From: a virus | Lineage: Duplodnaviria; Heunggongvirae; Uroviricota; Caudoviricetes | DNA length: 1,500 nt | Virus record (IMG/VR): IMGVR_UViG_2531839468_000020 | Span: 1 to 1,500 of that record | Direction: 5' to 3' (one strand) | Shown here: piece by piece, positions 24 to 1,500 of the stretch | How positions within the stretch are numbered: the first letter of the stretch is position 1 | Layout: the number at the start of each line of letters is the position of its first letter | Translations under genes and position numbers: made by a program | The notes under the pieces: model-generated | Database searches by the model: none | The model's input: the letters and a program-made list of their open reading frames with translations, nothing else | What the model was told of the DNA's origin: nothing

Positions 24-46
24 GACCTACGAAATTTTCGTAGGTC
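24..46 (+). terminator. Perfect 23-bp palindrome; candidate plus-strand intrinsic terminator or dimeric-protein binding site
   Basis: Seen in sequence: gacctacgaaa-t-tttcgtaggtc, with 11-bp arms that are exact reverse complements around one central T. As RNA it gives a 9-bp stem with a 5-nt AT loop. On the plus strand it is preceded by a T6 run and followed by tcttctttcc, which would fit termination of a convergent plus-strand transcript entering from before position 1. The minus-strand version is followed by an A-run, so it is not a minus-strand terminator. Confidence 0.35.
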
Positions 47-504: not shown

Positions 505-968
505 GATTTATCCCCCTTAAGCATGGCTGCACGGCAGGCGTTCCATCCTCTCACCTCTGCAATAGCGGCAACAGCATCAACCGCGTACATGCTAAGAGGG
601 TTCGGCATTGGTTTTTCTTCCGGCACTACTGGCGATGGCTGTTTAGCTTCTAAATCAGCAATTCTGTCAACCACGGCATCGACAGCATCTGAAAAACTGA
701 AACAGTTACTCCACTCAGGCCTATCCCCGGTTGCTGCAAAGTACATATCAGCTAAAGCAGACTCAGCATGGTCACGCTCATTAATGAGTTGCTCTTCGCT
801 TTTCTCCAGTTCTGCAATACGCTTGTTTTGGGATTCCCGTTCATCCAGCAGCGCCAGCACAATCGATGGTGTTACCAGCTCATGGAAAAGGTCCGCATCA
901 AATCCCCAGTCGTCATGCATTGCCTGCTCTGCCGCCTCACGCAGTGCCTGAGAGTTAATTTCGCTCAC
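501..968 (-). CDS. Ea22-like (ead/Ea22 family) phage early protein (155 aa)
   Basis: Seen in sequence: 468-nt minus-strand ORF. The start codon is GTG (plus-strand cac at 966-968), not ATG, with a GAGAGG Shine-Dalgarno 6 nt upstream, and it overlaps the upstream TGA stop as GTGA. Recalled: the N-terminus (SQALREAAEQA...DDWGF) resembles the conserved ALREAAE..W N-terminal helix of lambdoid Ea22-like proteins. The central stretch (NKRIAELEKSEEQLINERD) is charged and heptad-like, consistent with a coiled coil. Confidence 0.6.
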   Translation of the reverse strand: MSEINSQALREAAEQAMHDDWGFDADLFHELVTPSIVLALLDERESQNKRIAELEKSEEQLINERDHAESALADMYFAATGDRPEWSNCFSFSDAVDAVVDRIADLEAKQPSPVVPEEKPMPNPLSMYAVDAVAAIAEVRGWNACRAAMLKGDKS

Positions 969-1186
969 TTCGAACCTCTCTGTTTACTGATAAGCTCCAG
1001 ATCTTCCTGGCAACTTGCACAAGTCCGACAACCCTGAACGACCAGACGTCTTCGTTCATCTATGGGATCGCCACACTCACTACAATGAGTGGCGGATATA
1101 GTCTGGTAGTTCAGACGACGCATTTTTATTGCTGTATTGCGCTGTAATTCTTCAATTTCTGATGCTGAATCAATGATGTCCGCCAT
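965..1186 (-). CDS. TraR/DksA-family C4-type zinc-finger protein (73 aa), phage TraR-like
   Basis: Seen in sequence: 222-nt minus-strand ORF; the ATG at 1186-1184 has an in-frame TAA 9 nt upstream, so the start is constrained. The translation contains C-S-E-C, 17 residues, then C-A-S-C, which is the C-x2-C-x17-C-x2-C spacing of the DksA/TraR zinc finger, with one extra Cys in the spacer. Recalled: the segment CGDPIDERRR resembles CGNPIPEARRK of F-plasmid TraR, and the 73-aa length matches TraR and lambda Orf73-type proteins. Confidence 0.8.
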   Translation of the reverse strand: MADIIDSASEIEELQRNTAIKMRRLNYQTISATHCSECGDPIDERRRLVVQGCRTCASCQEDLELISKQRGSK

Positions 1187-1192
1187 CTTCCA

Positions 1193-1282
1193 TTAATCCC
1201 TGAATTGTTGGTTAATACGCTTGAGGGTGAATGCGAACAATAAAAAAGGAGCCTGTAGCTCCCTGATGATTTTGCTTTTCAT
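1193..1282 (-). CDS. Candidate small ORF, 29 aa (MKSKIIRELQAPFLLFAFTLKRINQQFRD); may be spurious
   Basis: Seen in sequence: ATG at 1282-1280 sits 8 nt after a consensus AAGGAG (1296-1291) and runs to TAA at 1195-1193, 6 nt before the zinc-finger ATG. An alternative in-frame ATG at 1288-1286 overlaps the upstream TGA stop. Against it: the ORF contains a hairpin plus U-tract and a promoter-like -35/-10 pair, so the gap may be purely regulatory. The hydrophobic stretch is only about 10 residues, too short for a transmembrane helix. Confidence 0.2.
   Translation of the reverse strand: MKSKIIRELQAPFLLFAFTLKRINQQFRD
1212..1240 (-). promoter_or_regulatory. Candidate sigma70-like promoter upstream of the zinc-finger gene
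   Basis: Seen in sequence (minus strand): TTGTTC (plus 1240-1235), a 17-nt spacer, then TATTAA (plus 1217-1212). Each hexamer matches its consensus at 4 of 6 positions. It lies about 25 nt upstream of the ATG at 1186. Unscored hand prediction, weak. Confidence 0.25.
1238..1266 (-). terminator. Candidate intrinsic terminator or attenuator between the 71-aa gene and the zinc-finger gene
   Basis: Seen in sequence: the minus-strand RNA AGGGAGC-UACAG-GCUCCUU folds into a 7-bp stem (one G-U pair) with a 5-nt loop, followed by UUUUAUUG. On the plus strand this appears as aaaaaaggagcctgtagctccct at 1242-1264. The stem is short, so termination is probably partial, as expected for lambdoid early operons read through by antitermination. 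Confidence 0.35.
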
Positions 1283-1284
1283 GT

Positions 1285-1500
1285 TCATCGCTCCTTAAAG
1301 ACGCCGTTTAACATGCCGATCGCCAGACTTAAATGAGTCGGTGTGAATCCCATCAGCGTTACCGTTTCGCGGTGCTTCTTCAGTACGCTACGGCAAATGT
1401 CATCGACGTTTTTATCCGGAAACTGCTGTCTGGCTTTTTTGATTTCAGAATTAGCCTGACAGGCAATGCTGCGAAGGGCGTTTTCCTGCTGAGGTGTCAT
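1285..1500 (-). CDS. Hypothetical phage protein (71 aa or longer), possibly truncated at its 5' end by the window edge
   Basis: Seen in sequence: minus-strand ORF ending at TGA 1287-1285, with an ATG at exactly 1500-1498 (the last three bases of the window). No upstream RBS or in-frame stop is visible, so the true start cannot be confirmed. Same strand and compact spacing as the downstream genes. I recognise no family or motif. Confidence 0.5.
   Translation of the reverse strand: MTPQQENALRSIACQANSEIKKARQQFPDKNVDDICRSVLKKHRETVTLMGFTPTHLSLAIGMLNGVFKER

What the first reader, a model, noticed from the sequence alone, without database searches (positions are those of the whole stretch)
1187..1296. 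Dense overlapping signals in the gap between the 71-aa gene and the zinc-finger gene: hairpin plus U-tract, promoter-like hexamers and a 29-codon ORF with a strong Shine-Dalgarno
Within about 100 bp the minus strand carries three things at once. There is a consensus AAGGAG at ideal spacing (8 nt) from an ATG that opens a 29-codon ORF (1193..1282). There is a 7-bp hairpin followed by UUUU (1238-1266) inside that ORF. And there is a -35/-10-like pair (TTGTTC, 17 nt, TATTAA) between the hairpin and the zinc-finger start. These cannot all be primary functions. Either a small peptide is encoded here and its translation interacts with termination (attenuator-like control of the zinc-finger module), or the ORF is spurious and the gap is a terminator-promoter boundary separating two transcription units.
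Basis: seen in the sequence. Interest (0 to 1): 0.5.

Follow-up and report, generated by a model that had tools for sequence, protein, structure and literature searches.

The report
Terminator inside a small phage ORF
The gap between two small genes of a lambda-like prophage holds a conserved, probably translated 29-codon gene with a conserved transcription terminator inside it, just upstream of the phage's RNA-polymerase-binding regulator; both parts were already noted for phage lambda, but their link and shared origin were not.

Summary
The window is the exo-xis block of a lambdoid prophage, with genes on the minus strand. It is 96% identical to phage lambda at this spot.

**What holds up**
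- The hairpin with U-run is real (8 pairs, -10.2 kcal/mol, then UUUUUUAUUGUU). It is the predicted terminator "t2" of Bloch et al. 2014.
- The 29/31-codon ORF is real. It is the only 31-aa ORF in lambda's block, matching "orf2313" reported from ribosome profiling. That match is inferred, because the paper was not readable.
- The promoter-like hexamers fail a consensus scan, and the -35 is not conserved.

**What is new here**
- The small ORF's last 24 residues are homologous to the C-terminus of Orf61-family (phrog_303) proteins. The neighbouring 71-aa gene is a full-length member.
- Equivalent 30-39-codon ORFs occur in more than 500 viral contigs, usually directly before a TraR-like gene.
- Non-synonymous change runs at about 0.2 of the synonymous rate.
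- The hairpin and U-run are kept inside this coding sequence in three lineages, with compensatory base changes and U-biased codons.

**Best reading**
A translation-coupled small ORF carries an intrinsic terminator and ends 6 nt before orf73. The terminator is probably sensitive to ribosomes, as in pyrBI/pyrE. That interaction is untested.

The parts
1285..1500 (-). 71-aa Orf61-family gene (phrog_303), full length, ending ...GVFKER-TGA. Its last codons AAG GAG supply the Shine-Dalgarno sequence of the small ORF.
   Evidence: The ORF is listed. PHROG match E = 1.8e-34. It aligns residues 1-70 to a 71-aa Citrobacter-type homolog at E = 9e-19. PGAP annotates it as a hypothetical protein.
1291..1296 (-). 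AAGGAG Shine-Dalgarno sequence, 8 nt before ATG 1282. It reads AAGGAA in lambda and many relatives.
   Evidence: Sequence; variants.
1286..1288 (-). Upstream in-frame ATG overlapping the stop of the 71-aa gene (ATGA), the start of the 31-aa version. It is GTG in about half of the lambda-type relatives.
   Evidence: The same ATGA overlap appears in most type-iii mini-ORFs.
1193..1282 (-). 29-codon ORF MKSKIIRELQAPFLLFAFTLKRINQQFRD plus TAA. It belongs to a family of 30-39-codon ORFs whose C-terminal 19-24 residues match the C-terminus of Orf61-family proteins.
   Evidence: BLASTP E = 9e-10 and 4e-11. Independent mini-ORFs in other contexts. N/S ratio about 0.2. Annotated in phage 21 and SfI. 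Present in protein databases as a hypothetical protein.
1246..1264 (-). Terminator hairpin AGGGAGCU-ACA-GGCUCCUU, covering codons R7-P12 of the small ORF. It equals the predicted t2 of lambda.
   Evidence: Same sequence listed as t2 in PMC4195576. Pairing conserved with compensatory changes across lineages.
1236..1247 (-). U-run UUUUUUAUUGUU, encoded by CCU UUU UUA UUG UUC (P-F-L-L-F).
   Evidence: In homologs the Phe codon here is always UUU, the Pro codon always CCU, and the Leu codons only UUA/UUG/CUU.
1170..1193 (-). 7-codon ORF MEDGGHH*. Its ATG overlaps the TAA of the small ORF (TAATG), and it overlaps the orf73 start out of frame. It is a possible competitor for re-initiating ribosomes.
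   Evidence: It fits the 7-aa 'orf2311' mentioned in PMC8614690. That identity is inferred.
965..1186 (-). orf73, a TraR/DksA-type zinc-finger regulator. Its ATG lies 6 nt after the small ORF's stop.
   Evidence: Pfam PF01258 and phrog_54. Lambda Orf73 binds RNA polymerase and inhibits rrnB P1 (PMC9239242).
1212..1240 (-). TTGTTC-17 nt-TATTAA promoter-like pair. This is not supported as a feature.
   Evidence: No site passes the scan in the window or on this strand in lambda. The -35 reads TTATTC in most relatives.

Best explanation
**What it is.** The 98-nt 'gap' is not spacer. It is a small coding module of about 30 codons with three properties:
- It is homologous to the 3' end of Orf61-family genes.
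- It starts at or just after the stop codon of the preceding gene (ATGA overlap, plus AAGGAG-8 nt-ATG).
- It carries an intrinsic transcription terminator inside codons 7-16 and stops 6 nt before the ATG of orf73, the phage TraR/DksA-like regulator of RNA polymerase.

**Shown here**
- The hairpin and U-run exist and are conserved at the nucleotide level.
- The reading frame is conserved at the amino-acid level.
- The start and stop geometry is conserved.

**From the literature**
- The hairpin was predicted as terminator t2.
- Lambda mRNA levels are lower downstream of it.
- A 31-aa ORF in this block was seen by ribosome profiling.

**Inferred mechanism**
- RNA polymerase that is not terminator-resistant stops at the U-run, unless a ribosome is close behind it.
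- A ribosome finishing the 71-aa gene (stop codon 20 nt before the stem), or translating the small ORF, covers the 5' arm of the hairpin and lets transcription run on into orf73 and ea22.
- The same ribosomes are delivered to the orf73 start.
- The element would therefore act as a coupling-type attenuator (as in pyrBI/pyrE) and a translational relay, gating the orf73 module. N-modified pL transcription largely ignores it.
For: **Hairpin**
- The terminator scan and fold support it.
- The same sequence is listed as t2_lambda, and orf73/ea22/ea8.5 mRNA is lower than orf60a/63/61 in lambda (PMC4195576).

**Conservation of the hairpin inside coding sequence, in three lineages with different stems**
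- Lambda type: AGGGAGCU/GGCUCCUU.
- Citrobacter type: AAAGGGAC/GUCCCUUU.
- Type iii: AGGUCGC/GCGGCCU.
- All three lie at the same codons and directly before the same U-run.
- 88% of cells pair, against at most 71% when the 3' partner is slid. Two pairs change on both sides, and 0 of 500 shuffles reach the observed covariation.
- Within type iii, 96.6% of cells pair and nearly all changes in the six outer pairs keep pairing.

**Codon evidence**
- Pro53 is CCU in 31 of 31 sequences and Phe54 is UUU in 31 of 31.
- Other Pro codons in the same genes have synonymous diversity 0.45-0.56. Other Phe codons mix TTC and TTT.
- Leu codons in the U-run are never CUG.
- Homologs without the hairpin (L044, L049) use CCA UUC ACU CUC at the same place.

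**The ORF**
- Homology to the family C-terminus.
- Mini-ORFs of 30-39 codons follow unrelated upstream genes, mostly with an ATGA overlap. They precede a TraR-like gene in about 65 of 79 type-iii loci and in 167 of 167 lambda-type loci.
- Variant counts are 28 synonymous against 18 non-synonymous in type iii, and 8 against 8 in lambda type. The ratio is about 0.2. P = 5e-7 to 5e-3 for type iii, and 0.005 to 0.11 for lambda type.
- It is the only 31-aa ORF in lambda's block, matching orf2313.

**Ribosome masking is established for other terminators**
- Termination falls from about 90% to under 10% when a stop codon lies 5 bp before tR2. It is maximal beyond 27 nt (PMC4824070).
Against: - No 3'-end mapping, reporter or footprint data were available to me for this site. 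Termination and its dependence on translation are untested.
- pL transcription is N-antiterminated, so in a normal lytic cycle the terminator may matter little.
- The covariation rests on only three lineages, so on few independent events. Within lineages the shuffle control is not significant.
- The lambda-type synonymous excess is marginal once transition bias is allowed for (P up to 0.11). One lambda-type locus carries a nonsense codon at position 26 (L127).
- Strong amino-acid conservation of codons 16-27 is not needed for a purely ribosome-masking role. The peptide probably has a function of its own that this model does not explain.
- Published reporter work shows that a terminator within the first 100 bp of a de novo initiated ORF is not masked. 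Masking here therefore depends on coupling to the upstream gene.
- Citrobacter-type alleles with the same terminator precede varied downstream genes.
Confidence: 0.5

Rival explanations
1. Independent parts with no interplay. The small ORF encodes a free-standing micropeptide with its own function, for example a mimic or partner of the Orf61 C-terminal helix. The hairpin is an ordinary operon-internal terminator of the pL operon that happens to lie in coding sequence, as tL3/t1 lies inside orf60a.
For: - The amino-acid sequence of codons 12-29 is conserved while synonymous sites vary.
- The t1/tL3-like hairpin of lambda also lies inside a CDS.
- Citrobacter-type full-length proteins carry the same terminator deep inside a 71-74-codon gene.
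Against: - The start of the mini-ORF is tied to the upstream stop codon, and its stop to the downstream ATG, in nearly all contexts. This points to translational coupling rather than a free-standing gene.
- A 29-aa fragment of a three-helix domain is unlikely to fold alone. This is an inference from the model described in PMC8614690.
Confidence: 0.25
2. Mosaic scar. The gap is a decaying remnant of the 3' end of a replaced Orf61 allele. The ORF, the Shine-Dalgarno sequence and the hairpin persist only because the replacement is recent and the region hitch-hikes with orf73.
For: - The window has a complete 71-aa allele followed by a second C-terminal fragment.
- Lambda-type copies are 95-99% identical, so little time has passed for decay.
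- One copy has a nonsense codon (L127).
Against: - Mini-ORFs of the same design occur in divergent lineages after unrelated genes, with intact frames.
- Type iii shows a significant synonymous excess.
- Stem changes preserve pairing.
- More than 500 viral contigs carry each type.
Confidence: 0.12
3. One reading: a terminator-promoter boundary between two transcription units. A promoter in the gap drives orf73 and ea22 independently of pL, and the ORF is spurious.
For: - Bloch et al. predicted a promoter p1 here with BPROM, with -35 TCATCA and -10 TTTTATTAT.
- They saw high orf73/ea22 mRNA in phage 24B after H2O2.
Against: - No site passes a sigma-70 consensus scan on this strand, in the window or in lambda.
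- The BPROM hexamers overlap the hairpin and U-run, so they are explained by the terminator.
- The ORF is not spurious.
Confidence: 0.08
4. The hairpin and U-run form the 3' end of an Hfq-binding small RNA, derived from the 3' end of the orf61 mRNA, that acts in trans.
For: A stem-loop followed by U6 is the usual Hfq-binding 3' module. Prophages of EHEC encode many sRNAs (PMC4104026).
Against: - No Rfam family matches.
- The known prophage anti-sRNAs lie 3' of PR', not in the exo-xis block.
- A 2026 survey of prophage sRNAs does not mention this region.
- The conservation pattern upstream of the hairpin is that of codons, not of a seed.
Confidence: 0.05

Closest known systems
Predicted terminator t2 of lambda and phage 24B (Bloch et al. 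2014, PMC4195576)
   Same: It is the same element. The published sequence AAAATCATCAGGGAGCT ACA GGCTCCTTTTTTATTATT is the lambda version of window 1270..1236. The authors place it between orf61 and orf73 and link it to lower downstream mRNA in lambda.
   Different: The paper treats it as intergenic. It does not note that the hairpin lies inside a conserved ORF, that it is conserved with compensatory changes in other lineages, or that the 'gap' is homologous to the Orf61 C-terminal coding region.
orf2313, the 31-aa ORF from lambda ribosome profiling (Liu et al. 2013, as cited in PMC8614690)
   Same: It has the same length and lies in the same conserved block. This is the only 31-aa ORF in lambda's exo-ea22 block. 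The neighbouring 7-codon ORF fits orf2311.
   Different: I could not read the primary paper, so the identity is inferred. No function or homology is given in the citing review.
pyrBI leader and pyrE (rph-pyrE) attenuators of E. coli (own knowledge; mentioned in PMC4824070 and PMC5021804)
   Same: - An intrinsic terminator is overlapped by, or lies just after, a translated ORF.
- A closely following ribosome prevents hairpin formation.
- No alternative antiterminator hairpin is needed.
- As in pyrE, the ribosome comes from the end of the upstream gene.
   Different: - There is no evidence for nucleotide-sensitive pause sites.
- The ORF's amino-acid sequence is conserved, unlike typical leader peptides of this class.
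- The element sits in an N-antiterminated phage operon.
- Regulation by coupling is untested.
Lambda tL3 / predicted t1
   Same: It is also an intrinsic terminator in the pL operon, and it also lies inside a small exo-xis ORF, orf60a.
   Different: It is a different site, about 600 bp upstream just after exo, with a different sequence. tL3 is the terminator retained in lambda Red plasmids (own knowledge).
Orf61 family (phrog_303)
   Same: The small ORF's last 24 residues align to residues 47-70 of 71-aa members, with 58% identity.
   Different: Only the C-terminal helix region is present. There is no PHROG or Pfam hit for the peptide itself. It is a fragment-sized relative, not a domain-complete member.

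Membership tests
Intrinsic (Rho-independent) terminator | G+C-containing stem-loop directly followed by a U-run on the transcribed strand | tested here: met
   8-pair stem, 3-nt loop, then UUUUUUAUUGUU. dG is -10.2 kcal/mol and z = -2.84.
Intrinsic (Rho-independent) terminator | Pairing and U-run maintained in relatives beyond what coding alone requires | tested here: met
   - Three stem versions occur at the same codons.
- 88% of cells pair, against at most 71% when slid. Two pairs show double changes.
- Within type iii, 96.6% of cells pair.
- Stem and U-run codons are invariant at synonymous sites, and Leu is never CUG.
- Caveat: there are few independent lineages.
Intrinsic (Rho-independent) terminator | RNA 3' ends or termination at the U-run, in vivo or in vitro | not testable with these tools
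   Only indirect evidence exists: lower orf73/ea22/ea8.5 mRNA than upstream genes in lambda by qRT-PCR (PMC4195576).
Coupling-type ribosome-mediated attenuator (pyrBI / pyrE class) | A translated ORF runs across the terminator or ends just before it | tested here: met
   - The hairpin starts 18 nt after ATG 1282 and 20 nt after the upstream stop codon.
- The ORF continues 40 nt beyond the U-run.
- The frame is conserved, with N/S about 0.2.
- Translation itself is known only second-hand.
Coupling-type ribosome-mediated attenuator (pyrBI / pyrE class) | Termination efficiency changes with translation of the ORF or with ribosome-polymerase coupling | not testable with these tools
   It needs reporter or 3'-end experiments. 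Published results for tR2 show the principle (PMC4824070).
Coupling-type ribosome-mediated attenuator (pyrBI / pyrE class) | Regulated polymerase pause sites upstream that set the coupling | not tested
   No tool was available. The upstream stretch is A-rich (AUGAAAAGCAAAAUCAUC), not U-rich as in pyrBI (own knowledge).
trp-type attenuator | Alternative antiterminator hairpin competing with the terminator, and a run of regulatory codons | tested here: not met
   The fold of the 114-nt gap shows the terminator plus weak long-range pairing only (z = -1.25). The peptide has no run of codons for one amino acid.
Orf61 protein family (phrog_303) | Match to the family profile over the whole domain | tested here: not met
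   - The small ORF has no PHROG or Pfam hit.
- It aligns only to residues 47-70 of a 71-aa member, at E = 9e-10.
- The adjacent 71-aa gene does meet this feature, at E = 1.8e-34.
Sigma-70 promoter | -35 and -10 hexamers close to consensus at 16-18 nt spacing, and conserved | tested here: not met
   The window has no sites, and lambda has none on this strand. TTGTTC becomes TTATTC in most relatives.
Curated RNA family (Rfam 15) | Covariance-model match | tested here: not met
   Only two chance-level eukaryotic hits, with E = 3.8 and 6.4.

The most novel reading that the evidence does not exclude
The ~30-codon ORF with its embedded terminator is a portable sensor of ribosome-polymerase coupling. 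It gates transcription into the phage TraR/DksA-like gene. Orf73 shuts down host rRNA and ribosomal-protein promoters. The module would therefore close a feedback loop between the host's translation capacity and the phage's reprogramming of host transcription. The conserved peptide may contribute through a nascent-chain or trans-acting role.
Probability: 0.15. Interest if true: 0.7.

Novelty: new member of a known kind. Interest (0 to 1): 0.42.

Why it matters
- The exo-xis block of lambda and Shiga-toxin phages influences the lysis-lysogeny decision and prophage induction. Its internal regulation is unexplained, including the different orf73/ea22 expression seen in lambda and phage 24B.
- The terminator in front of orf73 is conserved, lies inside a conserved translated mini-ORF, and is tied to the neighbouring genes by overlapping start and stop signals. 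This gives a concrete, testable model for how expression of the RNA-polymerase-binding regulator Orf73 is gated.
- It corrects the annotation of an 'intergenic' region in thousands of E. coli genomes.
- It is a clean natural example of an RNA structure overlaid on coding sequence.
- The parts themselves were already reported as predictions, so the advance is modest.

Tried and rejected
- **Rfam search of the window.** Nothing relevant was found.
- **Sigma-70 scan of the window and of lambda.** There is no promoter on the gene strand. The BPROM p1 hexamers of Bloch et al. overlap the hairpin and U-run.
- **Is the hairpin lambda tL3?** Rejected. The tL3/t1-like hairpin lies about 600 bp upstream, inside orf60a (plus own knowledge of lambda Red plasmids).
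- **Alternative antiterminator structure in the gap.** Not supported (z = -1.25).
- **Known prophage sRNAs (AgvB, AsxR, Pas).** They lie elsewhere or are not mentioned for this region.
- **Programmed -1 frameshift on U_UUU_UUA.** The heptamer is in the 0 frame, but it is not kept in Citrobacter-type alleles (CCTTTTCTT, CCTTTTGTT) and there is no downstream stimulator. It is probably a by-product of the U-run.
- **The primary ribosome-profiling paper.** Not held. A full-text search for the peptide found nothing.
- **Cluster look-up.** It also returned 'ZapA, partial' entries. These are contig-end fragments of the 71-aa protein, not relatives of the peptide.
- **First viral scan with the mini-ORF alignment.** It returned only identical lambda-type copies, so it was repeated with a type-iii sequence first.
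Full report
**Where the window comes from**

All genes lie on the minus strand. In order they are:
- a 71-aa gene (1500..1285);
- the flagged gap;
- a 73-aa TraR/DksA-type zinc-finger gene (1186..965);
- an ea22-like gene;
- a DUF551 gene.

Megablast places the region between exo and xis of lambdoid prophages in 4,055 of 5,426 complete E. coli genomes. In O26:H11 the order is N-side ... gam, bet, exo, DUF1317, DUF1382, the 71-aa gene, TraR/DksA, ea22-like ... xis, int.

Phage lambda itself matches window 1100-1400 at 95.7% identity (J02459 30527-30827). The zinc-finger gene is therefore lambda orf73. Lambda Orf73 binds RNA polymerase and inhibits rrnB P1 (PMC9239242). The 71-aa gene is the intact form of lambda orf61 (phrog_303).

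**Checking the observation**

The Shine-Dalgarno sequence, its spacing and the ORF are exactly as described:
- AAGGAG lies at 1296..1291, followed by 8 nt and ATG 1282.
- The ORF has 29 codons and ends with TAA at 1195..1193.
- An additional in-frame ATG at 1288 overlaps the upstream stop codon as ATGA, giving 31 aa.

The hairpin is stronger than stated:
- It has 8 pairs at 1264..1246, followed by UUUUUUAUUGUU.
- dG is -10.2 kcal/mol and z = -2.84.

The promoter-like pair is weak:
- It scores 3/6 and 4/6.
- It does not pass the consensus scan. The window has no sites, against 1.9 expected from shuffles.
- Its -35 reads TTATTC in most relatives, including lambda.
- Lambda has no site on this strand either.

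**What was already published**

- Bloch et al. 2014 predicted exactly this hairpin as terminator t2 of lambda and phage 24B, using ARNold (-8.3 kcal/mol).
- They also predicted a BPROM promoter p1 overlapping it.
- They reported lower orf73, ea22 and ea8.5 mRNA than orf60a, orf63 and orf61 in lambda (PMC4195576).
- A 2021 review states that ribosome profiling of lambda (Liu et al. 2013) found two extra genes in this conserved block, orf2311 (7 aa) and orf2313 (31 aa) (PMC8614690).
- The ORF here is the only 31-aa ORF on either strand of lambda's exo-ea22 block.
- A 7-codon ORF, MEDGGHH*, overlaps its stop as TAATG.
- I therefore infer that these are orf2313 and orf2311. I could not read the primary paper.
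- The 29-aa ORF is annotated as a hypothetical protein in phage 21, SfI and others. PGAP does not call it.
- The hairpin is not tL3. The tL3/t1-like hairpin lies about 600 bp upstream, inside orf60a.

**Origin of the small ORF**

In Citrobacter, Pseudocitrobacter and related prophages, the gene directly upstream of the orf73 homolog is a single 71-74-aa ORF. It ends ...KGLGVPFLLFVYTIGRINGQFREH.

- The window's 71-aa protein aligns to these proteins end to end (E = 9e-19).
- The small ORF aligns to their last 24 residues with 58% identity (E = 9e-10; alignment).
- The window therefore carries a complete Orf61-family gene followed by a second copy of the family's C-terminal coding end.

This is not a one-off scar.
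- ORFs of 30-39 codons with the same C-terminus follow unrelated genes, such as DNA methyltransferases.
- Examples are MKALITRSLSRPFLLLAFTFNRINRQFREH and MTLTNRITRSLQRPFLLLAFTFTRINQQFREH.
- More than 500 viral contigs carry this 'type iii' form.
- Among the best 79 loci, the ORF is 30 codons in nearly all.
- Its ATG overlaps the upstream stop as ATGA in about 70 of them.
- The next gene starts 2 nt after its stop. That gene is TraR-like (M(A)DIIDTAAEIEELQ...) in about 65 of 79.
- In 167 lambda-type loci the downstream gene is always orf73.

**Is the frame under selection?**

I counted distinct single-nucleotide variants against the consensus.

| Group | Distinct sequences | Synonymous | Non-synonymous | Synonymous / non-synonymous sites | Normalised N/S |
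|---|---|---|---|---|---|
| Type iii | 51 | 28 | 18 | 23 / 67 | 0.22 |
| Lambda type | 16 | 8 | 8 | 16.7 / 70.3 | 0.24 |

- One lambda-type non-synonymous change is a nonsense codon.
- It is marginal for lambda type, with P between 0.005 and 0.11.
- Non-synonymous changes concentrate at the N-terminus and at the loop codon. Codons 12-30 change mostly synonymously.
- The ORF is thus a conserved coding frame. It is not an accident of an intergenic spacer.

**Is the hairpin under selection?**

The hairpin and U-run occupy the same codons in three lineages, with different stems.

| Lineage | 5' arm / loop / 3' arm | Peptide at these codons |
|---|---|---|
| Lambda type | AGGGAGCU / ACA / GGCUCCUU | RELQAP |
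| Citrobacter type | AAAGGGAC / UUGGC / GUCCCUUU | KGLGVP |
| Type iii | AGGUCGC / UAUC / GCGGCCU | RSLSRP |

Each is followed by UUUUUUAUUG. The terminator scan detects the hairpin in representatives of each lineage.

Across lineages, in the codon-aligned register:
- 88% of cells pair, against at most 71% for slid controls.
- Two pairs change on both sides (G-C/A-U/C-G, and A-U/G-C).
- 0 of 500 shuffles reach the observed covariation.

Within type iii:
- 96.6% of cells pair.
- Nearly all changes in the six outer pairs keep pairing (U-G to C-G, U-G to U-A); the loop-closing pair is lost in the 6-nt-loop variants.
- There is too little variation for the shuffle control to be significant.

Codon usage in 31 distinct Citrobacter-type genes:
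- The stem and U-run codons are almost invariant at synonymous sites. AAG has diversity 0.06, GUC 0.06, CCU 0.00 and UUU 0.00.
- Other Pro codons in the same genes have diversity 0.45-0.56. Other Phe codons mix UUC and UUU.
- The loop codon GGN has diversity 0.56.
- The two Leu codons in the U-run are only UUA, UUG or CUU, although CUG dominates elsewhere in the gene.

Homologs without a hairpin (L044, L049) encode a similar peptide with CCA UUC ACU CUC. This is a natural control. It shows that the U-run is not forced by the protein.

The window's own 71-aa gene has no such hairpin. Here the terminator is supplied only by the small ORF.

The main caveat is that three lineages represent few independent events.

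**How it most likely works**

Shown:
- A canonical, conserved terminator lies inside a conserved ORF.
- The ORF's start is tied to the preceding stop codon.
- The ORF's stop lies 6 nt before orf73 (1-2 nt in other lineages).

Inferred: the terminator is ribosome-sensitive.
- The upstream stop codon lies 20 nt before the stem (14 nt in type iii). The small ORF's ATG lies 18 nt before it.
- In a reporter study, the tR2 terminator fell from about 90% to under 10% efficiency when a stop codon was 5 bp upstream.
- In that study termination reached its maximum only beyond 27 nt.
- Inside a long ORF it dropped to about 40%. It was not masked within the first 100 bp of a de novo initiated ORF (PMC4824070).
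- By analogy, a ribosome arriving from the 71-aa gene and re-initiating on the small ORF would suppress termination. It would also carry ribosomes to the orf73 start.
- Uncoupled transcription would stop before orf73.
- This is the logic of the pyrBI and pyrE attenuators (own knowledge). It is not the trp type, because no alternative hairpin is evident.

Limits of the model:
- pL transcripts are N-modified and terminator-resistant. The element would therefore act mainly on unmodified or spurious transcription, or give only the partial drop seen by qRT-PCR.
- The strong amino-acid conservation of the C-terminal half is not explained by masking alone. It suggests that the peptide has a role of its own.

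**Rivals**

I considered four rivals, scored in the rival-explanations section:
- independent micropeptide plus ordinary internal terminator;
- non-functional mosaic scar;
- terminator-promoter boundary;
- 3'-derived sRNA.

**Verdict**

- The flagged signals are real, except the promoter.
- The terminator and the ORF had each been reported for lambda as predictions.
- Three points are new:
  - the two are one conserved module;
  - the 'gap' is homologous to the Orf61 C-terminal coding region;
  - the RNA structure is maintained by compensatory and codon-choice constraints inside coding sequence, upstream of the phage TraR-like regulator.
- The regulatory interaction remains a hypothesis.

Noticed in passing
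window about 1435-1441 (minus strand A-run); L002 (lambda J02459) 30839..31024: Lambda's annotated orf61 is a frameshifted form of the 71-aa gene. Lambda has AAAAAAA where the window and O26 have AAAAAA, so the lambda product loses the family's C-terminal two thirds. This fits the review's remark that lambda Orf61 'appears truncated'.
   Followed up: partly
loci L007-L040: About 35 of 52 'genome' hits for orf73 are roughly 96%-identical lambda DNA in assemblies of unrelated organisms, including Shewanella, Bradyrhizobium, Streptomyces, Paenibacillus and Candidatus Nanosynbacter. Several contigs are about 48.4-48.5 kb. This is almost certainly lambda DNA contamination of the assemblies.
   Followed up: no
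L002 2239-2261 (lambda about 31265-31287), minus strand: The t1/tL3-like terminator hairpin GAGGCTGGGTATTTCCCGGCCTT lies inside the orf60a coding sequence. This is a second terminator embedded in a small exo-xis ORF.
   Followed up: partly
window 1170-1193, minus strand: A 7-codon ORF, MEDGGHH*, has its ATG overlapping the small ORF's TAA (TAATG). It overlaps the orf73 start out of frame. It fits the 7-aa 'orf2311' from ribosome profiling and could compete with orf73 for re-initiating ribosomes. It is absent from type-iii loci.
   Followed up: partly
window 1240-1248, minus strand (CCU UUU UUA): The U-run forms the heptamer U_UUU_UUA in the 0 frame of the small ORF, the classic -1 frameshift slippery pattern. 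It is not conserved in Citrobacter-type alleles and has no downstream stimulator, so it is probably incidental.
   Followed up: partly
L005 (phage vB_EcoS_ST2-8624) 691-822: An extra 132-nt CDS annotated as a zinc-finger protein lies between the small ORF and orf73. It appears to be a partial duplication of the orf73 5' end.
   Followed up: no
window 24-46, plus strand: A perfect 10-bp palindrome, GACCTACGAAATTTTCGTAGGTC, is followed by a T-rich stretch downstream of the DUF551 gene. The terminator scan flags it on the plus strand, opposite to the genes.
   Followed up: no
protein P0061: A type-iii mini-ORF variant, MKALITRELKAPFLLLAFTFNRINRQFREHP, carries the lambda-like RELxA codons at the hairpin. 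This suggests that hairpin versions are exchanged between lineages.
   Followed up: no
cluster 1 (P0035-P0047): Many 43-49-aa 'cell division protein ZapA, partial' entries are contig-end fragments of the 71-aa protein. E. coli draft assemblies often break inside this gene, probably because several prophage copies are present. The 'ZapA' name for the family looks like an unsupported propagated annotation, since no Pfam hit was found.
   Followed up: no
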